Origin: Escherichia phage vB_VIPECOOM03
Length of the DNA: 64,000 bases
Direction: 5' to 3' (one strand)
Sequence record: OQ721911
Each line of letters starts with the position of its first letter. Position 1 is the first letter of the stretch. The translations under genes were made by a program, and so were the position numbers. Shown here in pieces: positions 25,258 to 64,000 of the stretch. The notes under the pieces are model-generated. The model saw only the letters and a list, made by a program, of their open reading frames with translations, was not told the DNA's origin and did no database searches.

Positions 25258-25287
25258 ACTATAACACAACACGAGGGACTTGTAAAC
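25258..25287 (-). promoter_or_regulatory. Early-type promoter-like element (GTTTAC -35, 18-bp spacer, TATAGT -10), copy 1 of a repeated element
   Basis: Minus-strand GTTTACAAGTCCCTCGTGTTGTGTTATAGT; about 90 percent identical over ~55 bp to the element at 41000-41054. Confidence 0.5.
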
Positions 25288-27344
25288 TACATTTTGAACT
25301 TTTTAGACATTCCGTTGATGTTAACCAAAGAAGCCAAGATTTGAGAAACTTCGTTTTCCTCTTCTTTTGATTCTTCTACAAGGAATTGATTAAATCCAGC
25401 CATTGGACGAACTTCACCAGTTTCCATCAGATGGTCGCCATCATATACCGATTCTTCTAATTGTTCAGAAGGAGGAACGATTGTGCCTTCGACTAGATAC
25501 TTATTATAAGCAGTTTCTTTCATCATGTACGTACTCACTTTATTAATCTTCAGTAGAATTCCACGTGGTAGAATAATTTCAGCTTCTGATGGAAATCCTG
25601 ATAAATGACCTGGAACGATAACTTTGATTCGCTCAGCTCCTTTAATTACCATACCAACGCTAGTTTCAGCATCTTCATTCGCATAAGCAGAGCGACTGCC
25701 CATATGCATCAAATCTTCTGCGTCAACTGAACCTTCTCCTTCACCAGAAAATACTGCACCGGAATCATCTAGAGCCATATAGTTTTTACCATACTCACCG
25801 AAGATATTTGGTTTAAGCGATGTGGATACGAAGTTCTTGAAATAAAACATTTTATTTTCAATATTATGGCGTAAAGTTTTGAAAGTAACTTCTTGTCCAC
25901 GGTAAAGTGTAGTTCCTGGAGGAAGAACTGAACCTTTAGCAAAGGCAGAATCCATTGTCTCGATGTGTTTAATAGCTCGTTCCATATATTCTTCACGGGT
26001 AGAATCTGGTTTACCTAAAAGGAACGAGTTCATTTCAACATATGAATCTGCACAATAATCTTCAATTACATCAGATTCAGCTTGAGTCAGTCCTTTTGGA
26101 GTTACTTCGGTGCTTGCGTATTCATATGCCTGGGCGGCAGATTCATTAATCAATTTATAAATGCCATTCATGACAAATTGAATAATAGCTACCTTTTCAT
26201 CTGGCGTGGCTTTAGAACCTTTAACTAAATCATTAACAATTTTCTTAATAACATCAAAGCTGTTAGAAATATTAATATCAGAAAGATCACTTAAAATTTT
26301 ATCAGTTTTATAATCAAAAAATTCTTTATTCTTTAAATATTCTTGAGAACCTTGATATGTTATATCGCTCTGTAATTTAATAGATGGATCACGTAAACGT
26401 GCATGAGCCAATGCAATATGATTTCGGAAGCTTTCTAGTTCATAATCGTTAGATTTAAAACGAGAAGCGCTTCTCATACCACCTATAGCTCCTTTGCTGA
26501 AGTTTGAACCAATTTGAATAACGCCAGAGTTCATTGATCCTTCTGCTTTATATACCGGAACTTTAGATTCAAACTCTTGATATTTCTTAGCAGCGAAGCT
26601 ATCGCCCTGAAGTGAAGCATCAACAGTAGAATATTGAGCTTGTGCTGCTAATCGACGACTAATTTTAGTTTTCTGAATAACAGCTTGATCCGTGCGCTTA
26701 TCATTTTCTAAAGCAATAGAAGCAGCAACAGCAACAGCTTTAGGAACAGCATTACCCGTTTTAACGTCTACATAAACATCACCAACCTTTGATTCAACTT
26801 TTGTGAATAACTCAGTTGAAATAGGAGGTACACCTGGAATGTCTTCTAAATTGGCATTTTTACGGTAAACCATAATATATGCATACTTTTTATCGTAATC
26901 CCAGATTTCCTTTAAAAGAACATATCGACCTGCTCCTTTAGTACGTACTAAACGGTCGGCAATAACTTGCATTTGACGAGCTGCGCCGTTTGTTTTACTC
27001 TTTAGTACGCGGAATAAGCATGCATCAATTTTATACTGTTTCATTGTTTGAAGAGCAGTATCAAAAACCGCATTAATGACACCAATTGGGTTTCCACCCA
27101 AGTTTTTAAGTTTAACTAATGATAGTTTTTCATTGACACCTATCATTACGATATGCATCATTTTATCGCCTGGCTTAACGTTTTTATTTGTATCACCACC
27201 AGAGGTGTATGTACAAAATCTAAATCCAGGAAGCACACTTTCTTCACCGGCTTGAATAGCAAAAATTTGAGGTATTTTATGCTTAGGATTTAAGTTAACA
27301 ACCGGCGCCGAAGCGCCGTCAAATAATTCTGTAATAAGTTCCAT
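25287..27344 (-). CDS. Alt-like ADP-ribosyltransferase paralog (R-S-ExE motifs)
   Basis: 685-aa ORF; N-terminus MELITELFDG... closely parallels the adjacent alt; C-terminal region has YRGQ, FVSTSL and EAEIILPRG motifs. Confidence 0.85.
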   Translation of the reverse strand: MELITELFDGASAPVVNLNPKHKIPQIFAIQAGEESVLPGFRFCTYTSGGDTNKNVKPGDKMMHIVMIGVNEKLSLVKLKNLGGNPIGVINAVFDTALQTMKQYKIDACLFRVLKSKTNGAARQMQVIADRLVRTKGAGRYVLLKEIWDYDKKYAYIMVYRKNANLEDIPGVPPISTELFTKVESKVGDVYVDVKTGNAVPKAVAVAASIALENDKRTDQAVIQKTKISRRLAAQAQYSTVDASLQGDSFAAKKYQEFESKVPVYKAEGSMNSGVIQIGSNFSKGAIGGMRSASRFKSNDYELESFRNHIALAHARLRDPSIKLQSDITYQGSQEYLKNKEFFDYKTDKILSDLSDINISNSFDVIKKIVNDLVKGSKATPDEKVAIIQFVMNGIYKLINESAAQAYEYASTEVTPKGLTQAESDVIEDYCADSYVEMNSFLLGKPDSTREEYMERAIKHIETMDSAFAKGSVLPPGTTLYRGQEVTFKTLRHNIENKMFYFKNFVSTSLKPNIFGEYGKNYMALDDSGAVFSGEGEGSVDAEDLMHMGSRSAYANEDAETSVGMVIKGAERIKVIVPGHLSGFPSEAEIILPRGILLKINKVSTYMMKETAYNKYLVEGTIVPPSEQLEESVYDGDHLMETGEVRPMAGFNQFLVEESKEEENEVSQILASLVNINGMSKKFKM

Positions 27345-27347
27345 GAT

Positions 27348-29444
27348 TTATCCTTGAACGAACTTGTAAGGCATGTTTGTAATATCTATGCAAGACGCAA
27401 TAATTCCAAGAGATGATTCTGCTTTCTGTTTAACATTTGATGAAACAAATGATGCAAAGTCAACTCTGTCTTCTATTTCAATATCACCTGTCATTGCAAC
27501 CAATTCACCAGTTTCCATTAAATGGTCTCCATCATAGATTACCGATTCGGTGAGTTCTTCCGTAGTCATAACTTCAGCTTGAATGAGTTTTGTATTATTA
27601 GATGTTGTTCCGTCATTATTGGAAGCATCAGTTATTTTATTAACTTTGACCATCAATCCGCGTGGTAAAATAACTTCAGCTTCAGTTGCTATTCCGAGAC
27701 TTCCTGGATATACAACATTAACTTTATGAGCTCCATCAATTGCCCATCCTATTTGAACTTTAACGTATTCAGGATTTTCTTTATACGCTCTTATTTCGTT
27801 TGGATTAATAGTTATTCCTTCTTCATTTTTATCAACTGTTAATTCATTGCGAGCTTCTGGTTCTAAAAGACCAATACCAGCATGCGTAATTCCAAAACGT
27901 CCAAAAATGATAGGAGTTAAAGAAGTAGATACAAAATTTCTGAAATAGAACACTTTATTTTTAACTAGTGCTTCGTATATAGGAGCAGTCATACTTTGAG
28001 CACGATAAACTGTAATGCCTTCTGGTATACGGTCACCATTTTCAAAGGCTGAATCTAAATTATTTATCGCAGATTCAATTTCTTTTTCACTCATTACATC
28101 ATATCGTTCTGGATTATAGCGTCCTAAAAGAAGATTATTGATGTCAGTATATCCTGATCCACAATACTCTCTAATGCCGCGCTTTTGCGATGGAGTATAT
28201 TTAGAACCATCACGGGCAATAGTAATATCAATCATTGGACCTGCACCAATTCCAGAAAAGCTATAAATCATTCGTTTGAGGAATTTAGTTTTTGCTGCGT
28301 TCCAGGAATTTTTAGTTATTTCTTCCCAGACTTCATCTGGCTGTCCTTTACGGGTTTTATTATGTTTATCAAGCCAAGTATCTTTATATTCTTCAAAGAA
28401 TTTATTAATAGCTGCTGCATACTTCTCTAAACATTTTATTGAAGTAGTTGGTTCATTTTTGATCGCGTTAAAAATTACATCTTTAATTTTTTCAGAAACT
28501 TCATTAACCTCACTTTTTGAAAAGAATTTATAGTCATAGTGAAGTTCATCTGCAGTCCCTTCGGCAATAATTTTTGCTGCCTTAGTTTTAGAAGCTAATG
28601 AATTAATTCCAAGTTTCATTTCTTCCGCTTCGGGAATTAAAGGAGCTGTAGCAGGTTTATTGAAATTAGCTGCAGTAGATTCATACTTCTGGAATAATTC
28701 ACTTTCAAATCTAGAAGATTCCAATGACTGACTTTGTGCAATTGCTCTACGGGAAATTTTAACTTTAACTATTACAGCTTGGTCAGAACGTTTATCGTTT
28801 TCTTGCGCAATAGATGCTGCAATTGCCTCATTTTTAGTTACTTGAGCTCCAGTATCTTTATTGATATAAACATCGCCGACCTTCGATTCAACTTTAGTAA
28901 AGAGCTCGGTACTAATTTCTGGAACTCCTGGAATGTCTTCTAGTGATACATTTTTGCGATGTATAAGAATATATGCATACTTTTTATCGTAATCCCAGAG
29001 TTCCTTAAGAAGGACGTATCTGCCACCTGAACGACTACGGATAAGTCTATCAGCAATAACTTGAATTTGTCGAGCTTGACCAGCAGTTTTAGACTTAAGA
29101 ATACGGAGCATACAGGCATCAATTTTATACTGACGCATCGTCTGCATTGCAACAGTAAAAACTGAATTGATATAATTAATTGGGCTTGGACCGAGACCTT
29201 TTAATTTAGCAATTGAACCTTTAGCAGTTAATGTAAAAGGAACAATATGCATCATTTTATCGCCCATTTTTAAATCGCGATTAGTATCACCTCCAGATGT
29301 ATAGGTACATAAACGAAAGCCTGGTTGTTCAATTGCGTCATCAACATGAACTGAAAAAATTTGCGGTATTTTCTTCTTTGGATTTAAGTTTGTAATCGGA
29401 AGAGTAGTATCTTCGTCAAATAATTCTGTAATGAGTTCCATCAT
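27348..29444 (-). CDS. alt: Alt ADP-ribosyltransferase (capsid-packaged, modifies host RNA polymerase)
   Basis: 698-aa ORF; N-terminus MELITELFDEDTTLPITNL... as remembered for T4 Alt; ART motifs YRAQ, FVSTSL, EAEVILPRG; ATG at 29441 is an alternative start. Confidence 0.9.
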   Translation of the reverse strand: MMELITELFDEDTTLPITNLNPKKKIPQIFSVHVDDAIEQPGFRLCTYTSGGDTNRDLKMGDKMMHIVPFTLTAKGSIAKLKGLGPSPINYINSVFTVAMQTMRQYKIDACMLRILKSKTAGQARQIQVIADRLIRSRSGGRYVLLKELWDYDKKYAYILIHRKNVSLEDIPGVPEISTELFTKVESKVGDVYINKDTGAQVTKNEAIAASIAQENDKRSDQAVIVKVKISRRAIAQSQSLESSRFESELFQKYESTAANFNKPATAPLIPEAEEMKLGINSLASKTKAAKIIAEGTADELHYDYKFFSKSEVNEVSEKIKDVIFNAIKNEPTTSIKCLEKYAAAINKFFEEYKDTWLDKHNKTRKGQPDEVWEEITKNSWNAAKTKFLKRMIYSFSGIGAGPMIDITIARDGSKYTPSQKRGIREYCGSGYTDINNLLLGRYNPERYDVMSEKEIESAINNLDSAFENGDRIPEGITVYRAQSMTAPIYEALVKNKVFYFRNFVSTSLTPIIFGRFGITHAGIGLLEPEARNELTVDKNEEGITINPNEIRAYKENPEYVKVQIGWAIDGAHKVNVVYPGSLGIATEAEVILPRGLMVKVNKITDASNNDGTTSNNTKLIQAEVMTTEELTESVIYDGDHLMETGELVAMTGDIEIEDRVDFASFVSSNVKQKAESSLGIIASCIDITNMPYKFVQG

Positions 29445-38401: not shown

Positions 38402-39622
<1,221 letters not shown>

Positions 39623-53352: not shown

Positions 53353-56300
53353 ATGGCCGAGATTAAAAGAAAGTTCAGAGCAGAAGACGGTCTGGACGCA
53401 GGTGGCGATAAAATAATCAACGTAGCTTTAGCTGATCGTACCGTAGGAACTGACGGTGTTAACGTTGATTACTTAATTCAAGAAAACACAGTTCAACAAT
53501 ATGATCCAACTCGTGGATATTTAAAAGATTTTGTAATCATTTATAATAATCGTTTTTGGGCAGCAACGGATAATATTCCAAAACCTGCTGGAAGTTTTAA
53601 TAGAATTCGTTGGAAAGCATTACGTACTGATGCCGTATATACAACCGTATCATCTGGACCATATCAATTAAAATCCGGAGAAGCAATTTCAGTAGATACA
53701 TCAGTTGGTAATGACATTGAGTTTAATTTACCACCTTCTCCGCTTGATGGAGAAACCGTAATAATTCAAGATATTGGTGGAAAACCTGGTATAAATCAGG
53801 TTAAAATAAATTCTTCAAATCAGAGTATTGTTAATTTTAGAGGTGAACAAGTACGTTCAGTTCTAATGACTCATCCAAAGTCACAGATGATATTCATTTT
53901 TAATAATCGTTTGTGGCAAATGTATGTTGCTGATTATAGCAGAGAAGCTGCGATTGTTACTCCATCGACTGCATATCAAGCACAATCTAATGATTTTATC
54001 GTGCGTAGATTTACTTCCGCTGCGCCGATTAATATTAAACTTCCGAGATTTGCTAATCATGGCGATATTATTAATTTCGTTGATTTAGATAAATTAAATC
54101 CACTTTATCATACAATTGTCACAACATATGATGAAACAACTTCAGTACAAGAAGTTGGAACTCATTCTATTGAAGGCCGTACATCGATTGACGGTTTCTT
54201 GATGTTTGATGATAATGAAAAATTATGGAGATTGTTTGACGGGGATAGTAAAGCACGTTTACGCATTATAACGACTAATTCAAACATTCGTCCAAATGAA
54301 GAAGTTATGGTATTTGGTGCGAATAATGGAACAACTCAAACAATTGAGCTTCAGCTTCCAACTAATATTTCTGTTGGTGATACTGTTAAAATTTCCATGA
54401 ATTACATGAGAAAAGGACAAACAGTTAAAATCAAAGCTGCTGGTGAAGATAAAATTGCTTCTTCAGTTCAATTGCTGCAATTCCCAAAACGCTCAGAATA
54501 TCCACCTGAAGCTGAATGGGTGACTGTTCAAGAATTAGTTTTTAACGGTGAAACTAATTATGTTCCAGTTTTACAACTTGCTTATATAGAAGATTCTGAC
54601 GGAAAATACTGGGTTGTACAGCAAAACGTTCCAACTGTTGAAAGAGTCGATTCTTTAAATAATTCTACTAGAGCAAGATTAGGCGTAATTGCTTTAGCTA
54701 CACAAGCCCAAGCTAACGTCGATTTAGAAAATTCTCCACAAAAAGAATTAGCAATTACTCCAGAAACATTAGCTAACCGTACTGCTACAGAAACTCGCAG
54801 AGGTATCGCAAGAATAGCAACTACTGCTCAAGTAAATCAGAACACTACATTCTCTTTTGCTGATGACCTTATCATCACTCCTAAAAAGCTGAATGAAAGA
54901 ACTGCTACAGAAACTCGCAGAGGTGTTGCTGAAATTGCTACGCAGCAGGAAACTAATACAGGTACTGATGATACTACAATCATCACTCCTAAAAAGCTTC
55001 AAGCTCGTCAAGGTTCTGAAACATTATCGGGTATTGTAACTTTTGTATCTACCGCAGGAGCTACTCCAGCTTCTAGTCGTGAATTAAATGGTACAAATGT
55101 TTATAATAAAAATACTAATAATTTAGTTGTTTCGCCTAAAGCTTTGGATCAGTATAAAGCTACTCCAACACAGCAAGGTGCAGTAATTTTAGCAGTTGAA
55201 AGTGAAGTAATTGCTGGACAAAGCCAAGAAGGATGGGCAAATGCGGTTGTAACGCCAGAAACGTTACATAAAAAGACATCAACTGATGGAAGAATTGGTT
55301 TAATTGAGATTGCTACGCAAAGCGAAGTTAATACAGGAACTGATTATACTCGTGCAGTCACTCCTAAAACTTTAAATGACCGTAAAGCAACTGAAAGTTT
55401 AAGTGGTATAGCTGAAATTGCTACACAAGTTGAATTCGACGCAGGTGTCGACGATACTCGTATCTCTACACCATTAAAAATTAAAACCAGATTTAATAGT
55501 ACTGATCGTACTTCTGTTGTTGCTCTATCTGGATTAGTTGAATCAGGAACTCTCTGGGACCATTATACCCTTAATATTCTTGAAGCAAATGAGACACAAC
55601 GTGGTACACTTCGTGTAGCTACACAAGTTGAAGCTGCTGCAGGAACATTGGATAATGTTCTAATAACTCCTAAAAAGCTTTTAGGTACTAAATCTACTGA
55701 AGCGCAGGAAGGTGTTATTAAAGTTGCAACTCGGTCTGAAACTGTAGCTGGAACGTCAGCAAATACTGCTGTATCTCCAAAAAATTTAAAATGGATTGTG
55801 CAGAGTGAACCTACTTGGGCAGCTACTACTGCGATAAGAGGTTTTGTTAAAACCTCATCCGGTTCAATTACATTCGTTGGTAATGATACAGCTGGTTCTA
55901 CGCAGGACTTAGAACTATATGAGAAAAATAACTATGCAGTATCACCATATGAATTAAACCGCGTATTAGCAAATTATTTGCCGTTAAAAGCAAAAGCTGT
56001 AGATAGTAATTTATTAGATGGTTTAGATTCACTCCAGTTCATTCGTAGGGATATTGCGCAGACGGTTAATGGTTCACTAACCTTAACGCAACAAACGAAT
56101 CTGAGTGCCCCTCTTGTATCATCTAGTACTGCTACGTTTGGTGGATCAGTTTCGGCAAATAGTACATTAACTATTTCTAATACTGGAACGGCAACTCGTC
56201 TGATTTTTGAAAAAGGGCCTCAAACTGGGACGAACCCAGCTCAAACGATGACAGTCAGAGTGTGGGGAAATCAATTCAGCAGTGAATCGGACACAACACG

Positions 56301-57222
56301 TTCTACTGTATTTGAAGTTAGTGATGAAACGTCTAGTCACTTTTATTCTCAGCGCAATAAAGCTGGTAATATAACATTTAATATAAACGGTACAGTAACG
56401 CCGATAAATGTGAATGCTTCAGGAACATTGAATGCGAATGGCGTTGCAACATTCGGTAGTTCAGTTACTGCTAATGGCGAATTTATCAGTAAATCATCGA
56501 ATGCTTTTAGAGCAATAAACGGTGATTATGGATTCTTTATTCGTAATGATGGTGCTAACACCTATTTTATGCTTACTGCATCTGGTGATCAGACCGGTGA
56601 ATTTAATGGATTACGTCCTTTATCTATTAATAATGCATCTGGTCAAGTAACGATTGGTGAAAGCTTAATCATTGCCAAAGGTGCTACTATAAATTCAGGC
56701 GGTTTGACTGTTAACTCGAGAATTCGTTCTCAGGGTACTAAAACATCTGATTTATACACCCGTGCCCCAACATCTGATACTGTAGGATTCTGGTCAATAG
56801 ATATTAACGATTCAGCCACTTATAACCAGTTCCCGGGTTATTTTAAAATGGTTGAAAAAACTAATGAAGTGACTGGACTTCCATACTTAGAACGTGGCGA
56901 AGAAGTTAAATCTCCCGGTACATTGACTCAGTTTGGTAACACACTTGATTCGCTTTACCAAGATTGGATTACTTATCCAACTACCCCAGAAGCGCGCACC
57001 ACTCGCTGGACACGCACATGGCAGAAAACCAAAAACTCTTGGTCAAGTTTTGTTCAGGTATTTGATGGGGGTAACCCTCCTCAACCTTCGGATATAGGAG
57101 CGATCCCATCTGATAACGGAATAATAGGTAATCTTACTATTCGTGATTTCTTGCGAATTGGTAATGTTCGCATTATTCCTGACCCAGTGAATAAAACTGT
57201 TAAATTTGAGTGGATTGAGTAA
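53353..57222 (+). CDS. 34: Long tail fibre proximal subunit gp34
   Basis: 1289-aa ORF, same length as T4 gp34; internal repeated motifs (TPKKL...ATETRRG...IAT). Confidence 0.95.
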   Translation: MAEIKRKFRAEDGLDAGGDKIINVALADRTVGTDGVNVDYLIQENTVQQYDPTRGYLKDFVIIYNNRFWAATDNIPKPAGSFNRIRWKALRTDAVYTTVSSGPYQLKSGEAISVDTSVGNDIEFNLPPSPLDGETVIIQDIGGKPGINQVKINSSNQSIVNFRGEQVRSVLMTHPKSQMIFIFNNRLWQMYVADYSREAAIVTPSTAYQAQSNDFIVRRFTSAAPINIKLPRFANHGDIINFVDLDKLNPLYHTIVTTYDETTSVQEVGTHSIEGRTSIDGFLMFDDNEKLWRLFDGDSKARLRIITTNSNIRPNEEVMVFGANNGTTQTIELQLPTNISVGDTVKISMNYMRKGQTVKIKAAGEDKIASSVQLLQFPKRSEYPPEAEWVTVQELVFNGETNYVPVLQLAYIEDSDGKYWVVQQNVPTVERVDSLNNSTRARLGVIALATQAQANVDLENSPQKELAITPETLANRTATETRRGIARIATTAQVNQNTTFSFADDLIITPKKLNERTATETRRGVAEIATQQETNTGTDDTTIITPKKLQARQGSETLSGIVTFVSTAGATPASSRELNGTNVYNKNTNNLVVSPKALDQYKATPTQQGAVILAVESEVIAGQSQEGWANAVVTPETLHKKTSTDGRIGLIEIATQSEVNTGTDYTRAVTPKTLNDRKATESLSGIAEIATQVEFDAGVDDTRISTPLKIKTRFNSTDRTSVVALSGLVESGTLWDHYTLNILEANETQRGTLRVATQVEAAAGTLDNVLITPKKLLGTKSTEAQEGVIKVATRSETVAGTSANTAVSPKNLKWIVQSEPTWAATTAIRGFVKTSSGSITFVGNDTAGSTQDLELYEKNNYAVSPYELNRVLANYLPLKAKAVDSNLLDGLDSLQFIRRDIAQTVNGSLTLTQQTNLSAPLVSSSTATFGGSVSANSTLTISNTGTATRLIFEKGPQTGTNPAQTMTVRVWGNQFSSESDTTRSTVFEVSDETSSHFYSQRNKAGNITFNINGTVTPINVNASGTLNANGVATFGSSVTANGEFISKSSNAFRAINGDYGFFIRNDGANTYFMLTASGDQTGEFNGLRPLSINNASGQVTIGESLIIAKGATINSGGLTVNSRIRSQGTKTSDLYTRAPTSDTVGFWSIDINDSATYNQFPGYFKMVEKTNEVTGLPYLERGEEVKSPGTLTQFGNTLDSLYQDWITYPTTPEARTTRWTRTWQKTKNSWSSFVQVFDGGNPPQPSDIGAIPSDNGIIGNLTIRDFLRIGNVRIIPDPVNKTVKFEWIE

Positions 57223-57230
57223 GAGGTATT

Positions 57231-58346
57231 ATGGAAAAATTTATGGCAGAGTTTGGACAAGGATACGTCCAAACGCCATTTTTATCGGAAAGTAATTCAG
57301 TAAGATATAAAATAAGTATAGCGGGTTCTTGCCCGCTTTCTACAGCAGGACCGTATGTTAAATTTCAGGATAATCCTGTCGGAAATCAAACATTTAGCGC
57401 AGGTCTTCATTTAAGAGTTTTTGACCCTTCAACAGGAGCATTAGTTGATAGTAAGTCATATGCTTTTTCTACTTCAAATAATACTACATCAGCTGCTTTT
57501 GTTAGTTTCATGAATTCTTTGTCAAACAATAGACTTGTTGCTATATTAACTAGCGGAAAGGTTAATTTTCCTCCTGAAGTGATATCTTGGTTAAGGGGAG
57601 CAGGAACTTCAGTTTTTCCATCAGATTCAGTATTGTCAAGATTTGACGTATCATATGCTGCTTTTTATACTTCTTCTAAAAGAGCTATTGCATTAGAGCA
57701 TGTTAAACTAAGTAATAGAAAAAGCACAGATGATTATCAAACTATTTTAGATGTTGTATTTGATAGTTTAGAAGACGTCGGAGCTACGGGATTTCCTAAA
57801 AGAACATATGAAAGTGTCGAGCAATTTATGTCAGCGGTTGGTGGAACTAATAACGAAATTGCGCGATTGCCAACTTCAGCTGCTATAAGTAAACTATCTG
57901 ATTATAATTTAATTCCTGGCGATGTTCTTTATCTTAAAGCACAGTTATATGCTGATGCTGATTTACTTGATCTTGGAACTACAAACATATCCATTCGTTT
58001 TTATGATGCATCAAATGGATATATTTCCTCTACCCAAGCTGAGTTTACTGGGCAAGCTGGGTCTTGGGAATTAAAGGAAGATTATGTAGTTGTTCCTGAA
58101 AATGCAGTCGGATTTACTATATATGCGCAGAGAACTGCTCAAGCTGGTCAAGGCGGAATGAGGAATTTAAGCTTTTCTGAAGTATCAAGAAATGGCGGCA
58201 TTTCAAAACCTGCCGAATTTGGCGTCAACGGTATTCGTGTTAATTATATCTGTGAATCGGCTTCACCTCCAGATATAATGGTACTTCCTACACAAGCCTC
58301 TTCTAAAACTGGCAAAGTGTTTGGGCAAGAATTTAGAGAAGTTTAA
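57231..58346 (+). CDS. 35: Long tail fibre hinge connector gp35
   Basis: 371-aa ORF, size and position as T4 gp35. Confidence 0.9.
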   Translation: MEKFMAEFGQGYVQTPFLSESNSVRYKISIAGSCPLSTAGPYVKFQDNPVGNQTFSAGLHLRVFDPSTGALVDSKSYAFSTSNNTTSAAFVSFMNSLSNNRLVAILTSGKVNFPPEVISWLRGAGTSVFPSDSVLSRFDVSYAAFYTSSKRAIALEHVKLSNRKSTDDYQTILDVVFDSLEDVGATGFPKRTYESVEQFMSAVGGTNNEIARLPTSAAISKLSDYNLIPGDVLYLKAQLYADADLLDLGTTNISIRFYDASNGYISSTQAEFTGQAGSWELKEDYVVVPENAVGFTIYAQRTAQAGQGGMRNLSFSEVSRNGGISKPAEFGVNGIRVNYICESASPPDIMVLPTQASSKTGKVFGQEFREV

Positions 58347-58351
58347 ACTGA

Positions 58352-58375
58352 GGGAGCCTTCGGGTTCCCTTTTTC
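58352..58375 (+). terminator. Rho-independent terminator after gene 35 (copy 1)
   Basis: GGGAGCC-ttcg-GGTTCCC (one G-U pair) followed by TTTTTCTTT. Confidence 0.7.
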
Positions 58376-58478
58376 TTTATGAATCGGCTTCACCTCCAGA
58401 TATAATGGTACTTCCTACACAAGCCTCTTCTAAAACTGGCAAAGTGTTTGGGCAAGAATTTAGAGAAGTTTAAACTGA

Positions 58479-58502
58479 GGGAGCCTTCGGGTTCCCTTTT
58501 TC
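58479..58502 (+). terminator. Rho-independent terminator (copy 2, within duplicated unit)
   Basis: Identical hairpin plus T-run 127 bp downstream of copy 1. Confidence 0.65.
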
Positions 58503-58504
58503 TT

Positions 58505-58512
58505 TATAAATA
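58505..58512 (+). promoter_or_regulatory. T4-type late promoter (TATAAATA) for gene 36
   Basis: Exact TATAAATA straddling the end of the second repeat unit, about 24 bp upstream of gene 36 ATG; the equivalent junction after copy 1 reads TTTATGAA and is not a promoter. Confidence 0.65.
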
Positions 58513-58535
58513 ATATTAAAATAAAGGGGCATATA

Positions 58536-59192
58536 ATGGCTGATTTAAAAGTAGGTTCAACTGTGGGTGGATCTGTCATTTGGCATCAAGGAAATTTTCC
58601 ATTGAATTCAGCCGGTGACGATGTACTCTACAAATCATTTAAAATATATTCAGAATATAATAAACCGCAGGCAGCTGATAACGATTTCGTTTCTAAAGCT
58701 AATGGCGGTACGTATTTAAATAAAGTAATTTTTAATAAAGGAATGACTGTTCCTGGTGCAGGGTCAGGTGACAATGGTATTTTTGCTGGTCCTGGTGATA
58801 ATGCCACGTATGATACTACAAATATGGATATTGTTTCGTGGTATGGTATTGGTTTTAAATCATCACAGGGTTCAGCGGGTAGAACTGTAGTAATTAACAC
58901 GCGAAATGGAGATATTAGCTCAAAGGGTGTAATTGAAGCATCACAAATACGCGCAACTTCATTATCACCAGTAAATAATTATGACCTTACACGGAAAGAT
59001 TATGTTGATGGAGCAATAAATATTGTTACAGCAAACGCAAACTCTAGAGTATTACGCTCTGGAGACACTATGACAGGAAATTTGACTGCGCCAAACCTTT
59101 TTTCACAGAATCCTGCATCTCAACCTTCACATGTTCCACGATTTGATCAAATTGTTATTAAGGATTCTGTTCAAGATTTCGGCTATTATTAA
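58536..59192 (+). CDS. 36: Long tail fibre distal connector gp36
   Basis: 218-aa ORF, size and position as T4 gp36. Confidence 0.9.
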
Positions 59193-59200
59193 GAGGACTT

Positions 59201-62149
59201 ATGGCTACTTTAAAACAAATACAATTTAAAAGAAGCAAAACCGCAGGTCAACTTCCTGCTGCTTCAGTATTAGCCGAAGGTGAATTGGCTATTAATTTAA
59301 AAGATAAAGCAATTTTCACAAAAGATGATTCAGGCAATGTTATAGAATTAGGTTTAAAATATGGAGGAACAATTGATGGTTCTTTAACTGTTAATGGAAA
59401 TATAACTGGAACTTTAATTGGAAATTCTAGCACAGCTACTAAATTGCAAACACCTAGGAAAATTAATGGTATATCCTTTGATGGGTCAAAAGATATCACG
59501 CTAACTCCATCTGACATAAATGTCAATAGCACAACGTTTATAAAAAATAACGGCGAATTACCGGTTGATGCTAATTTAGATGAGTATGGGCCTGTTGAAG
59601 AATATCTTGGGGTTTGGTCGAAATCTACTTCAACAAATGCGCAACCGGCAAATAAATTCCCAGAAGAAAATGCCGTAGGTGTACTAGAAGTATTTGTGGC
59701 CGGTCAATTTGCTGGTACTCAGAGATATACTGTAAGATCTGGTAACGTATATGTTCGATCTTTGTCTGCTAAATGGAACGGTGTTAACGGTCCGTGGGGA
59801 GTTTGGCGTAATGTTCAAGCGTCAACTCGTCCACTTTCACAAACGATTGACCTTGATAGCTTGGGAGAATTAGAACATTGCGGCTTATGGCGAAATAGTT
59901 CAAGTGCTATTGCATCATTTGATCGCCATTATCCAGAAGAAGGATCAGCCGCACAAGGATTTTTAGAAATATTTGAAGGTGGTTTATACACGAGAACGCA
60001 GCGATATACTACCCGCATGGGTATGGTTTATACTCGTTGTCTCGCTGCCGCATGGGATGCTAGCGCACCCAAGTGGGAGGAATGGAAGCAGGTTGGTCAT
60101 GGCACACCAGCGACTTTTTATGATGGAGATCTGAATGATTTTAAAACTCCTGGGTTATATAATATTTTAGGCACTGATGCCGTTATTAATTGCCCTACAG
60201 GTGAAGGTTTACCAGCCGTTATTGTTGGTTTGCTAGAAGTTAAACAGCGTGCTTCTGGTGGTGCTATTTTCCAAAAATTTACTACTGCCGGAACGGGTGA
60301 AACTACTCGCGATCGTATTTTTGAGCGTGCATATACTGGTGGTGCGTGGGGTGCATGGAACGAAGTATATACATCTTATTCTCTGCCAATTACTTTGGGT
60401 ATGGGTGGTATTAAAGCTCAATTATCGGAGTTAGATTGGCAAACCTTTGATTTTGTTCCTGGTAGTATGTTTAGCGTTCCTTTGAACAAAATAAAGAATA
60501 TGCCAGCAAATATGGATTGGGGCACGATTGATGGAAACCTGGTTATGTTTTCCGTTGGTCCTAGCGAACATACTGGCACAGGACGTACTGTTCAGGTTTG
60601 GCGTGGTACTGTATCCCAGACAAACTACCGTTATTTTGTTGTGCGTATAGCTGGAAATCCAGGAAACAGGACTAACACTTGTCGCCGTGTTGTTCTTGAA
60701 GACGGATCACATACTTGGACTGCTCAACAAAACTTTAGGGGATTGCTAAATATCACCGCTGATATTAATCTTGGTGCTAATAAGAAAATTTCAATTGCTC
60801 CGGGAGCATATATTCAAGGCCCTGCTAGCGGTTCTGGTTCAAATACTTACGCAAATCAGAATACTACTATTGCGCCATTATATCAGGCCATTGACGATTC
60901 AAATAAAAACCAGTTTGCTCCTATTGTAAAACAGAAAAACACTGTAACAAATATTACTATGGCTTCTGGTATGGATATTGCTAGTTCAGAATATCGTATC
61001 ATTGCTCAAGGTGATTTATCCGCTACTGGAACTACAGCTAATGAATTAGCTACATGGCGTTTCTTGCCGTCTGGCCGATTCATGTCACAAAGTCGAGTTT
61101 ATGCTGGCGCAGCATTCTTGAACACTGATGGTAACATTGCTGGTTCAATCTGGAAGAAATACAACGATGCAACCAACTTAGACGCTGCTTTGAATACTCG
61201 CGTAGGTAAAAGCGGTGATATTATGACCGGACGCTTGACAATTCAAAGCCCAGGTGATTCTATTGTATTATCAGCACCTGCTAGTAATTCTTTGCATATT
61301 CGTGGTGACGTAGACGGGACTGGTAACTGGTATATTGGTAAGGGTGGTGATGATAATGGATTAGCGTTCTATAGTTATGCTACTAATGCTGGTGTATACA
61401 TTACAAACGCAGGAGATATCACGCTAAGTCCAAAAGGCGTCGAAATGGCTCATGTCAATAACATTCGATTATATGTTCATGGTGAACGTTGGACCGCTAG
61501 TCAACCAGGTGATTGGGGCAACCAATGGCGAGTAGAAGCGCCAATATTCGTCGATCATGGTTATGTTGGATCAGATAGCTATTATCCAATTATTAAAGGA
61601 AGAAGTGTAGTCACCAATCAAGGGTTTGTAACTGCCGTCGATCTTGGTATTCGTCGTGTCCCTAATAATTGGGGACAAGCAATTATTCGTGTTGGATCTG
61701 CGGAGGCATCGCCAGCGGCTGGACACCCTAACGCGGTATTTGAATTTCATTACGACGGTACTTTCTATTCTCCTGGTAATGGTAACTTTAACGATGTGTA
61801 TATTCGTTCCGATGGTCGACTTAAGATCAATAAAGAAGAGTTAGAAAACGGAGCACTTGAAAAAGTATGCCGACTGAAGGTTTATACATACGATAAGGTT
61901 AAGTCTATTAAAGATCGTAGTGTTATTAAACGTGAAGTTGGTATTATTGCTCAGGATCTTGAAAAAGAATTACCGGAAGCTGTGTCTAAAGTTGAAGTTG
62001 ATGGATCTGATGTTCTGACAATTTCTAACTCCGCTGTGAATGCTCTTTTAATTAAGGCTATCCAAGAAATGAGCGAAGAAATTAAAGAATTAAAAACGCC
62101 TTTCTTCACTAAAATTGCTCGCAAAATTAGTAATTATTTTAAATTCTAA
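59201..62149 (+). CDS. 37: Long tail fibre distal subunit gp37 with C-terminal intramolecular-chaperone-like domain
   Basis: 982-aa ORF; conserved N-terminus [20 protein letters not shown]; C-terminal ~110 aa ([20 protein letters not shown]...[15 protein letters not shown]...) resembles self-cleaving chaperone domains of tail spikes/fibres. Confidence 0.9.
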
Positions 62150-62154
62150 CAACA

Positions 62155-62170
62155 AGGGGCTTTGCCCCTT
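62155..62170 (+). terminator. Hairpin after gene 37 (GGGGC-tttg-CCCC)
   Basis: Short GC stem-loop followed by TTTGG; weak terminator or RNA processing site. Confidence 0.4.
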
Positions 62171-62181
62171 TGGAGAAAATT

Positions 62182-62982
62182 ATGGCAGTAGTTGGTGTTC
62201 CCGGTTGGATTGGAAGTTCATCTGTAAATGAAACAGGACAACGATGGATGAGTCAAGCGGCTGGTCAATTAAGATTGGGTGTTCCTTGCTGGATGAGCCA
62301 ATTCGCCGGACGCTCAAGAGAGATTATTCATACCGTAACAGCAAACCATAACTTTAATGGTCAATGGTTCCGCGACCGTTGCTTTGAAGCTGGCGGTGCA
62401 CCCATTGTATTCAATATTGTTGGTGATATCGTTTCTTATTCTAAAGATGTGCCACTTTTCTTTATGTATGGGGATACGCCTAATGAATATGTTGTTCTTA
62501 ATATTCATGGCGGTGTTCATATGTGGGGTCGTGGTGGTAATGGTGGATACACTCACTCAGGAGGCGACGGTAACGGTACACAAGGCGGTCATGTTATTCA
62601 AAATGATATCGGTGGACGGCTTCGTATTTGGAACTACGGTGTTATAGCTGCTGGCGGTGGTGGTGGTGGCGGTATTGCATATCGTCCACACTCAGGGGCA
62701 AACTGGCAAGATATCGGTGGCGGTGGCGGTCGACCTTTCGGTGGTGCTGGCGGTGGCGGTTATTCCGGTGGTGCTGCTTCGTATGAAGGTCCGGGTGGTG
62801 GTTATGACTATGGTAACGCACACTCCGGCGCAGGCGGTAATGCTGGTGCTGCTGGTCAGAATGCATGGTATGACGGCGGTAAAGTTCTTAAAGTTGGTGT
62901 TGGTGGTGCGTCTGGTCATGCAGTGTTTGGATCTTCTCCAACTTGGGGTGCTGTTGGAACAATTTACGGACCAAGAGTATAA
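62182..62982 (+). CDS. 38: Receptor-recognising adhesin gp38 (T2-type, glycine-rich motifs)
   Basis: ATG at 62182 with GGAG RBS gives 266 aa starting [13 protein letters not shown]; C-terminal half contains several poly-Gly blocks ([21 protein letters not shown]) separated by variable segments. Confidence 0.88.
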
Positions 62983-63012
62983 TTTGAATAAATATCCTTA
63001 AAAGGAGGGTCT

Positions 63013-63669
63013 ATGGCAGCACCTAGAATATCATTTTCGCCCTCTGATATTCTGTTGGGTGTTCTAGATCGCTTGTTCAAAGATAATGCTACCGGGAAAG
63101 TTCTTGCTTCCCGGGTAGCTGTCGTAATTCTTTTGTTTATAATGGCGATTGTTTGGTATAGGGGAGATAGTTTCTTTGAGTACTATAAGCAATCAAAGTA
63201 TGAAACATACAGTGAAATTATTGAAAAGGAAAGAAATGCACGCTTTGAATCTGTCGCCCTGGAACAACTCCAGATAGTTCATATATCATCTGAGGCAGAC
63301 TTTAGTGCGGTGTATTCTTTCCGCCCTAAAAACTTAAACTATTTTGTTGATATTATAGCATATGAAGGAAAATTACCTTCAACAATAAGTGAAAAATCAC
63401 TTGGAGGATATCCTGTTGATAAAACTATGGATGAATATGCAGTTCATTTAAATGGACGTCATTATTATTCAAACTCAAAATTTGCTTTTTTACCAACTAA
63501 AAAGCCTACTCCCGAAATAAATTACATGTACAGTTGTCCATATTTTAATTTGGATAATATCTATGCTGGAACAATAACCATGTACTGGTATAGAAATGAT
63601 CATATAAGTAATGACCGCCTTGAATCAATATGTGCTCAGGCGGCCAGAATATTAGGAAGGGCTAAATAA
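63013..63669 (+). CDS. t: Holin T
   Basis: 218-aa ORF, same length as T4 holin; single TM segment (VAVVILLFIMAIVW) and large periplasmic domain. Confidence 0.93.
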   Translation: MAAPRISFSPSDILLGVLDRLFKDNATGKVLASRVAVVILLFIMAIVWYRGDSFFEYYKQSKYETYSEIIEKERNARFESVALEQLQIVHISSEADFSAVYSFRPKNLNYFVDIIAYEGKLPSTISEKSLGGYPVDKTMDEYAVHLNGRHYYSNSKFAFLPTKKPTPEINYMYSCPYFNLDNIYAGTITMYWYRNDHISNDRLESICAQAARILGRAK

Positions 63670-63942
63670 TTATTTGTTTGTATACATCTCTAGATATCGA
63701 TATACACCCTCAAAACCCTCGTTGAATTCGTCGATGAGGGTTTTCTTATCTTCTTGAGTTAATTCAGAAACAATTTTACGGAATGAATTCTGATTTAACT
63801 TTCTACCTTCATGCGTTACTCCAATCTCATTCAGAAATGCAATAAAATTAGCACGATTCTCAACAATATCTTCTCTGGAAAATTTAATCAAAATAGACGC
63901 AACAGTAATAATTTCACGAACTGTATCAATATTTTTATTCAT
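63670..63942 (-). CDS. asiA: Anti-sigma-70 factor AsiA
   Basis: 90-aa ORF; MNKNIDTVREIITVASILIKFSREDIVENRANFIAFLNEIG... recognised as T4 AsiA. Confidence 0.93.
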   Translation of the reverse strand: MNKNIDTVREIITVASILIKFSREDIVENRANFIAFLNEIGVTHEGRKLNQNSFRKIVSELTQEDKKTLIDEFNEGFEGVYRYLEMYTNK

Positions 63943-64000
63943 TAACTATACCACTCAATTAGTTGACTTTGTTATAATATCATCAGACGCTTGATTTGTA

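What the first reader, a model, noticed from the sequence alone, without database searches (positions are those of the whole stretch)
58254..58507. Perfect 127-bp tandem duplication at the gene 35/36 junction
Positions 58254-58380 and 58381-58507 are identical on direct reading. The unit spans the last 31 codons of gene 35, its stop codon, the downstream hairpin with T-run and the first bases of the gene 36 late promoter. The result is two consecutive terminators and a non-translated copy of the gene 35 3' end ahead of gene 36. Perfect identity implies a very recent duplication, possibly via replication slippage or recombination at the hairpin, or else an assembly artefact. If real, it could alter read-through and the 35:36 expression ratio.
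Basis: seen in the sequence. Interest (0 to 1): 0.6.

Follow-up and report, generated by a model that had tools for sequence, protein, structure and literature searches.

The report
Assembler overlap left inside phage genome
The perfect 127-base tandem duplication between tail-fibre genes 35 and 36 is really in the sequence, but it is almost certainly a leftover of the SPAdes assembler's 127-base end overlap, carried into the interior when the circular contig was rotated, so it is not phage biology.

Summary
In detail: 58254-58380 and 58381-58507 are identical, with period 127.

The biological reading does not hold.
- The whole 64-kb window has no mismatch to Escherichia phage vB_VIPECOOM01 (OQ721909.1, positions 96001-159873), apart from this extra 127 bp.
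- The genome announcement for the sibling isolate vB_VIPECOOM03 gives 168,519 bp, which is 168,392 + 127. It states SPAdes with -k 21,33,55,77,99,127, then reorientation to rIIA, and CheckV "direct terminal repeats".
- Two unrelated phage genomes from the same paper each carry exactly one perfect tandem duplication, also of period 127, at unrelated sites. Both break a gene, and removing one copy restores the reading frame.
- All 60 T4-like records listed out of 610 matches are single copy, and so are 15 independently assembled contigs. The junction sequence occurs nowhere else that I searched.

Verdict: this is not a real feature. The real locus is an ordinary single-copy gene 35 stop, hairpin with T-run, and late promoter ahead of gene 36. 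The only test missing is the reads of SRR23866065 across the junction.

The parts
58254..58380 (+). Copy 1 of the 127-bp unit. In the inferred raw contig this is the 3' end, i.e. the k-mer overlap. It holds the genuine 3' end of gene 35, its stop codon and the first hairpin with T-run.
   Evidence: perfect identity, period 127. (in phase with gene 35, 30 codons plus stop).
58381..58507 (+). Copy 2 of the 127-bp unit. In the inferred raw contig this is the 5' end. It is absent as an extra copy from OQ721909.1 and from all other relatives examined.
   Evidence: deleting 127 bp makes the window identical to OQ721909.1..
58380..58381 (.). The new junction (…CTTTAT|GAATCGG…). It is the inferred join of contig end to contig start, made when the assembly was rotated. 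Only 1 nt of flanking identity.
   Evidence: The junction 36-mer is absent from IMG/VR. No contiguous junction match among the listed phage records. The ORF spanning the junction is not on record anywhere.
57231..58346 (+). Gene 35 (long tail fibre proximal connector, 371 aa). It is intact and not changed by the duplication.
   Evidence: ORF. (annotation of the identical OQ721909.1 CDS 153231-154346). (exact protein on 9 contigs).
58350..58379 (+). Terminator-like hairpin with a C(UUCG)G-type loop and a T-run. This is the genuine single-copy element downstream of gene 35.
   Evidence: 9-pair stem, 5 G-C pairs, loop of 4, T-run. (-15.1 kcal/mol, z = -2.5). (identical in 14 of 15 independent contigs). 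Several GenBank relatives annotate a 'terminator' here.
58477..58506 (+). Second copy of the same hairpin and T-run. It exists only because of the duplicated unit.
58321..58473 (+). Spurious 50-aa ORF (TTG start) that reads across the junction into the repeated gene 35 tail. It is a by-product of the artefact.
   Evidence: No gene with this product anywhere in the 153-billion-gene index.
58505..58512 (+). T4-type late promoter octamer TATAAATA ahead of gene 36. Single copy; only TAT lies inside the repeat unit.
   Evidence: the only TATAAATA in 58201-58600; the junction reads TATGAATC. The consensus is from established knowledge of T4 late promoters.
58536..59192 (+). Gene 36 (long tail fibre distal hinge connector, 218 aa). 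It lies 189 nt after the gene 35 stop here, against 62 nt in every other assembly.

Best explanation
The duplication is a bioinformatic artefact, not part of the phage DNA.

The window comes from a T4-like coliphage genome, almost certainly Escherichia phage vB_VIPECOOM03, GenBank OQ721911, 168,519 bp, positions 96,001-160,000. That genome was assembled with SPAdes with a largest k of 127.

T4-like DNA is circularly permuted, so it assembles as a circle. SPAdes writes such a circle as a linear contig whose last 127 bases repeat its first 127 bases. Here the arbitrary contig break fell at the end of gene 35.

The authors then rotated the contig so that it starts at rIIA, without first trimming the overlap. 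That placed contig end and contig start side by side and created a perfect 127-bp tandem repeat in the interior. Reads map equally well to either copy, which would explain why polishing did not remove it.

Shown here: the length match, the absence from identical siblings, the recurrence in other genomes of the same pipeline, and the methods statement.

Inferred: that the window is OQ721911, since that record is not in the searchable collection, and that the raw contig began at 58381.
For: 1. The period is exactly 127, the copies are perfect and directly adjacent, and flanking identity is only 1 nt.
2. The whole window equals OQ721909.1 96001-159873 with 0 mismatches apart from the extra 127 bp. 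The offset is exactly 96,000, so the source record has the same start.
3. PMC10508110 reports:
   - vB_VIPECOOM03 is 168,519 bp, which is 168,392 (OM01 and OM02) plus 127.
   - CheckV called the genomes complete 'with direct terminal repeats'.
   - OM01-03 came from the same location and are 'identical species'.
4. The same signature occurs in unrelated genomes of that paper.
   - OQ721915.1 (Pseudomonas Pakpunavirus) has one perfect period-127 tandem repeat at 72776 onward.
   - OQ721914.1 (Klebsiella Jiaodavirus) has one at 117483 onward, inside the gp29-like baseplate hub/tail-length gene.
   - Both frameshift a gene that is annotated as two CDSs. Deleting one copy restores ORFs of 167 and 577 aa.
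   - No other such repeat exists in those genomes or in the OM01 stretches fetched.
5. All 11 other relatives of OQ721915 listed are single copy at that site. They include the same laboratory's later PQ429081.1, 92,031 bp, which is 92,158 - 127.
6. For the window's locus:
   - All 60 Tequatrovirus records listed, out of 610 with a match, span 874-889 bases (874 in 59, 889 in one) for the 1001-base query, so none carries a second copy.
   - 15 of 15 Logan contigs have the 62-nt spacer between genes 35 and 36. One of them, SRR23865827_50, is 100% identical over 5.4 kb.
   - The junction is found nowhere else.
7. [quoted passage not shown]
Against: - The reads of the source run (SRR23866065) could not be examined, so the junction was not directly shown to lack read support.
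- No contig from that run appeared in the gp35 or gp36 look-ups, so there is no independent assembly of the very same library.
- The source record OQ721911 is not in the phage collection, so the identity of the window rests on arithmetic and on the paper.
- A real 127-bp duplication here would be viable: gene 35, the late promoter and gene 36 all stay intact. Biology alone therefore does not exclude it at this site, unlike in the two sibling genomes.
Confidence: 0.97

Rival explanations
1. A genuine, very recent tandem duplication in the vB_VIPECOOM03 stock. It would have arisen by replication slippage or illegitimate recombination with 1 nt of microhomology, and would give two consecutive terminators between genes 35 and 36.
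For: - The sequence as given contains it.
- It would leave gene 35, the late promoter and gene 36 intact, so it could be tolerated.
- T-even phages are known to form tandem duplications, and headful packaging can absorb 127 extra bp (established knowledge of T4, not tested here).
- The 1-nt junction identity fits a microhomology join.
Against: - Its length equals the stated largest SPAdes k.
- Two unrelated phages from the same pipeline carry perfect 127-bp duplications elsewhere, one of which frameshifts the gp29-like baseplate hub gene (its T4 counterpart, gene 29, is essential by established knowledge) in a plaque-forming phage.
- The sibling isolates, identical across the compared 64 kb, lack it.
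- No other assembly or record holds the junction.
Confidence: 0.02
2. The 127-bp repeat reflects a physical direct terminal repeat of the packaged genome, i.e. true chromosome ends, which became internal when the record was rotated.
For: CheckV reported the assemblies as complete 'with direct terminal repeats'.
Against: - T4-type phages package by the headful mechanism. Their chromosomes are circularly permuted with kilobase-scale terminal redundancy and have no fixed ends (established knowledge of Tequatrovirus).
- The site lies inside the gene 35 coding sequence.
- The same 127-bp length recurs in a Pakpunavirus and a Jiaodavirus at unrelated positions inside genes.
- The OM01 and OM02 records lack it.
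Confidence: 0.005
3. The duplication was introduced after deposition, for example by an edit or a processing step applied to the sequence handed to this scan, and is not in any public record.
For: The source record could not be retrieved for comparison. The window differs from OQ721909.1 by this insertion alone.
Against: The published genome size of vB_VIPECOOM03 (168,519 bp) already includes exactly 127 extra bases. Deposited sibling records from the same paper carry the same kind of repeat.
Confidence: 0.005

Closest known systems
[quoted passage not shown] 2018, Viruses 10:188, PMC5923482)
   Same: The length is exactly the largest k (127). The identity is perfect. It occurs on a circularly permuted phage genome assembled as a circle. 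CheckV reads it as a DTR.
   Different: Here the overlap is not at the record ends. Rotating the contig to the rIIA start moved it to the interior, where it looks like a biological tandem duplication.
Same-pipeline sibling records OQ721914.1 (Klebsiella phage vB_VIPKPNUMC01) and OQ721915.1 (Pseudomonas phage vB_VIPPAEUMC01)
   Same: Each holds one perfect tandem duplication of period 127, in the interior of a record that had been reoriented.
   Different: Those copies fall inside coding sequence and frameshift a gene (the gp29-like gene and a phrog_3360 gene), so they are obviously wrong. In the window the repeat spans a gene end plus an intergenic spacer and breaks nothing, which makes it look plausible.
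Genuine tandem duplications in T-even phages (for example the classical T4 rII-region duplications; from my own knowledge, not checked here)
   Same: Head-to-tail repeat with a junction of little or no homology. Tolerated by headful packaging.
   Different: Real duplications have arbitrary lengths, usually hundreds to thousands of bp, are supported by reads, and segregate by recombination. This one has the assembler's k as its length and has no support outside one assembly.
T4-type gene 35/36 intergenic region: intrinsic-terminator-like hairpin followed by late promoter TATAAATA
   Same: The single-copy form of the window's spacer is identical to that of 14 of 15 independent T4-like contigs. 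Several GenBank relatives annotate it as a terminator.
   Different: Nothing differs once the extra 127 bp is removed.

Membership tests
Assembler k-mer overlap artefact made internal by reorientation | The repeat length equals the final k of the assembler used | tested here: met
   Period 127. The paper states SPAdes -k 21,33,55,77,99,127.
Assembler k-mer overlap artefact made internal by reorientation | Two copies only, perfectly identical and directly adjacent | tested here: met
   2.0 copies, 0 mismatches over 127 nt, no spacer.
Assembler k-mer overlap artefact made internal by reorientation | The genome was assembled as a circle and then rotated to a conventional start | tested here: met
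   [quoted passage not shown] CheckV found DTRs. The window offset to OQ721909.1 is exactly 96,000, and that record ends with rIIB, which fits the rIIA start stated.
Assembler k-mer overlap artefact made internal by reorientation | Genome length exceeds that of otherwise identical genomes by exactly k | tested here: met
   168,519 against 168,392 is 127. The window is identical to OQ721909.1 apart from the 127 bp. A parallel case: 92,158 against 92,031.
Assembler k-mer overlap artefact made internal by reorientation | The same signature recurs at unrelated positions in other genomes from the same pipeline | tested here: met
   OQ721915.1 at 72776 and OQ721914.1 at 117483, both period 127, both the only such repeat in the genome. 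Removing a copy restores the ORFs.
Assembler k-mer overlap artefact made internal by reorientation | No sequencing reads span the internal junction | not testable with these tools
No Logan contig of that run was returned.
Genuine tandem duplication (slippage or illegitimate recombination) | The junction is present in independent sequence data | tested here: not met
   The junction is absent from IMG/VR. No contiguous match among the listed phage records. The junction ORF is not on record. 15 of 15 contigs are single copy. The isolate's own reads were not tested.
Genuine tandem duplication (slippage or illegitimate recombination) | Microhomology or a repeat at the duplication end points | tested here: inconclusive
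   Only 1 nt (T) is shared. That fits either chance or a join with almost no homology.
Physical direct terminal repeat of the virion DNA | Fixed chromosome ends at the repeat boundaries | not testable with these tools
   This needs read-start analysis. Established knowledge of T4-type headful packaging argues against it, and the boundary lies inside the gene 35 coding sequence.

The most novel reading that the evidence does not exclude
The 127-bp duplication is really present in the vB_VIPECOOM03 stock. It would be a newly arisen, neutral tandem duplication that doubles the terminator between the 34-35 and 36-38 tail-fibre transcription units, and its length would match the SPAdes k by coincidence.
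Probability: 0.02. Interest if true: 0.2.

Novelty: not a real feature. Interest (0 to 1): 0.03.

Why it matters
It has no biological importance: there is no altered terminator dosage and no recent recombination event to explain.

It matters for data hygiene.
- At least three deposited genomes from one announcement carry an internal 127-bp assembler overlap: the window's source, OQ721914.1 and OQ721915.1.
- In two of them it splits a real gene into two annotated CDSs. One is the gp29-like baseplate hub/tail-length gene.
- vB_VIPECOOM03 is one of two phages the authors propose as candidates for therapy.
- The Escherichia phages of this paper define the species Tequatrovirus vipecoom, and the Pseudomonas phage defines Pakpunavirus vippaeumc, so these errors can spread into reference sets.
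- A simple screen would catch this class of error: a perfect tandem repeat whose period equals a common assembler k (127, 99, 77, 55...) in a reoriented phage genome.

Tried and rejected
- I tried to retrieve the presumed source record OQ721911. It is not in the phage collection.
- I tried to find an independent (Logan) assembly of the isolate's own run, SRR23866065, through exact look-ups of gp35, gp36, gp37, gp34 and the junction ORF.
  - gp35 and gp36 returned 15 contigs from other runs, all single copy.
  - gp37, gp34 and the junction ORF are not on record.
  - The decisive read-level test therefore stayed out of reach.
- I searched the junction 36-mer in IMG/VR: no match.
- I rejected slippage at the hairpin as the origin. 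The end points are not at the hairpin but 96 nt upstream of it and 9 nt downstream, with 1 nt of homology.
- I rejected a true DTR (see rivals).
- I did not scan OQ721912 and OQ721913, the two Enterobacter phages of the same paper. Three of three genomes already showed the signature.

Full report
**Observation**

Reading 57900-58900 shows the sequence TGAATCGGCTTCACC…CCCTTTTTCTTTA twice in a row.
- Tandem Repeats Finder reports one array at 58253-58511 with period 127, 2.0 copies and score 511.
- A base-by-base comparison at offset 127 gives an unbroken run of 128 identities, 58253-58380 against 58380-58507.
- It is the only such repeat in the 64-kb window for periods 20-599.

**Anatomy**

The surrounding ORFs are the T4-type long-tail-fibre cluster:

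| Gene | Coordinates | Product length |
|---|---|---|
| 34 | 53353-57222 | 1289 aa |
| 35 | 57231-58346 | 371 aa |
| 36 | 58536-59192 | 218 aa |
| 37 | 59201-62149 | 982 aa |

- The unit begins in phase with gene 35.
- It then carries a hairpin, GAGGGAGCC-TTCG-GGTTCCCTT, with a T-run. The hairpin folds at -15.1 kcal/mol.
- It ends with TAT, the first three bases of the late-promoter octamer TATAAATA at 58505-58512. At the internal junction the octamer is TATGAATC, so there is only one late promoter.
- A 50-aa ORF (58321-58473) reads across the junction.

**Comparison with relatives**

- A 1001-base query across the site matches 610 phage records. All 60 listed span 874-889 bases (874 in 59, 889 in one), so none carries a second copy.
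- The best two are Escherichia phages vB_VIPECOOM01 and vB_VIPECOOM02 (OQ721909.1 and OQ721910.1), both 168,392 bp.
- A 100-base query centred on the junction gives only split, two-piece matches among the 30 best records, and none is a contiguous 100% match.
- The junction 36-mer has no match in IMG/VR.
- Direct comparison shows that window 1-58380 equals OQ721909.1 96001-154380, and window 58508-64000 equals 154381-159873, with no mismatch at all. The window is therefore that genome plus 127 bases, cut at an offset of exactly 96,000.

**Independent assemblies**

- Exact look-ups of gp35 and gp36 return 15 Logan contigs from other sequencing runs.
- All have the 62-nt spacer between the gene 35 stop and the gene 36 ATG. 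It is identical to the de-duplicated window in 14 contigs and differs by one loop base in one.
- One contig, SRR23865827_50, is 100% identical to the de-duplicated window over 5.4 kb.
- The junction ORF is not on record anywhere.

**Source and method**

The genome announcement that names these phages (PMC10508110) states the following.
- The third sibling, vB_VIPECOOM03 (OQ721911), is 168,519 bp, which is exactly 168,392 + 127.
- The three coliphages came from the same site and are 'identical species'.
- CheckV found the genomes complete 'with direct terminal repeats'.

SPAdes writes a circular path as a linear contig whose last k bases repeat its first k bases. Rotating such a contig without trimming puts the two copies side by side. 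[quoted passage not shown] OQ721911 itself is not in the phage collection, so the identity of the window is inferred from these numbers.

**Test of the artefact hypothesis on other genomes from the same pipeline**

I fetched two unrelated genomes from the same paper in full and scanned them for perfect tandem repeats with periods 20-599.
- OQ721915.1 (Pseudomonas phage, Pakpunavirus, 92,158 bp) has exactly one, with period 127, at 72776 onward.
- OQ721914.1 (Klebsiella phage, Jiaodavirus, 167,797 bp) has exactly one, with period 127, at 117483 onward.
- Both lie inside genes that the record annotates as two adjacent CDSs of the same PHROG family. Deleting one copy restores single ORFs of 167 aa and 577 aa.
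- The 577-aa ORF is the gp29-like baseplate hub/tail-length gene. Its T4 counterpart, gene 29, is essential (established knowledge), so the frameshift cannot be real in a plaque-forming phage.
- All 11 other relatives of OQ721915 listed are single copy at that site. They include the same laboratory's later PQ429081.1, which is 92,031 bp, or 92,158 - 127.
- The stretches of OM01 that I fetched have no such repeat.

Three of three genomes from this pipeline thus carry the k = 127 signature at unrelated positions.

**Conclusion**

The duplication is an assembly and reorientation artefact (confidence about 0.97). The real locus is the ordinary, highly conserved single-copy spacer: gene 35 stop, hairpin with T-run, late promoter, Shine-Dalgarno sequence and gene 36. 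Nothing about read-through or the 35:36 ratio needs explaining.

The remaining doubt is that the reads of SRR23866065 could not be inspected. At this particular site a real duplication would be viable, so it is excluded by provenance rather than by biology.

**Rivals**

- A real recent duplication (0.02).
- A physical DTR (0.005). This conflicts with T4-type headful packaging and with the same 127-bp length appearing inside genes of two other phage genera.
- A post-deposition edit (0.005). The published genome size already includes the 127 bp.

**Novelty and interest**

This is not a real feature, and its biological interest is very low. Its practical value is as a curation flag for three deposited records, including one phage proposed as a therapy candidate, and as a simple screening rule for this class of error.

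Noticed in passing
L023 18083-18338 (OQ721914.1 117483-117738): The Klebsiella phage vB_VIPKPNUMC01 record carries the same kind of perfect 127-bp tandem repeat inside the gp29-like baseplate hub/tail-length gene. The record annotates the gene as two CDSs (VIPKPNUMC01_00216 and 00217). Removing one copy restores a 577-aa ORF.
   Followed up: yes
L019 23276-23532 (OQ721915.1 72776-73032): The Pseudomonas phage vB_VIPPAEUMC01 record carries a perfect 127-bp tandem repeat that splits a phrog_3360 gene into CDSs 00138 and 00139. Removing one copy restores a 167-aa ORF. The same laboratory's later record PQ429081.1 is exactly 127 bp shorter and single copy.
   Followed up: yes
window 58253-58507; OQ721914.1 117483 onward; OQ721915.1 72776 onward: The perfect register runs are 128, 129 and 130 nt. 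That is 1, 2 and 3 bases beyond k = 127, somewhat more flanking identity than the roughly 0.9 bases expected by chance per genome. With three cases it is probably coincidence, but it is unexplained.
   Followed up: partly
window 58350-58379, and L003-L017 at the gene 35/36 spacer: The 62-nt spacer between genes 35 and 36 (hairpin with a CUUCGG loop, T-run, TATAAATA, Shine-Dalgarno) is identical in 14 of 15 contigs from unrelated samples, although the flanking genes 34 and 37 diverge. The one variant (L016) changes the loop from TTCG to TTTG.
   Followed up: partly
window 62718-62776: An imperfect 27-bp tandem repeat (2.1 copies, 84% matches) made of GGT/GGC-rich codons. It lies inside the gene downstream of gene 37, annotated 'tail fiber protein; host specificity' in OQ721909.1 (158055-158855, which is window 62182-62982). 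It resembles the glycine-rich motifs of T2/T6-type gp38 adhesins (from memory, not tested).
   Followed up: no
window 39494-39545 and 39577-39616: Two short imperfect tandem repeats (periods 27 and 21, about 2 copies each), 30 bp apart. They lie within a small minus-strand hypothetical gene (OQ721909.1 135306-135626, phrog_2364).
   Followed up: no
window 53353-57222 (gene 34) and L006: The exact-sequence look-up for the 1289-aa gp34 found nothing. Yet Logan contig SRR23865827_50 is identical to the window over the 3000 nt upstream of gene 35 and has a 1289-aa gene called there. Either that contig differs further upstream or the index is incomplete.
   Followed up: no
window 25287-29441 (OQ721909.1 121287-125441): Two adjacent, similarly sized genes on the minus strand are annotated as Alt-like RNA polymerase ADP-ribosyltransferases (phrog_802). 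This would be a genuine tandem gene pair, unlike the artefact studied here.
   Followed up: no
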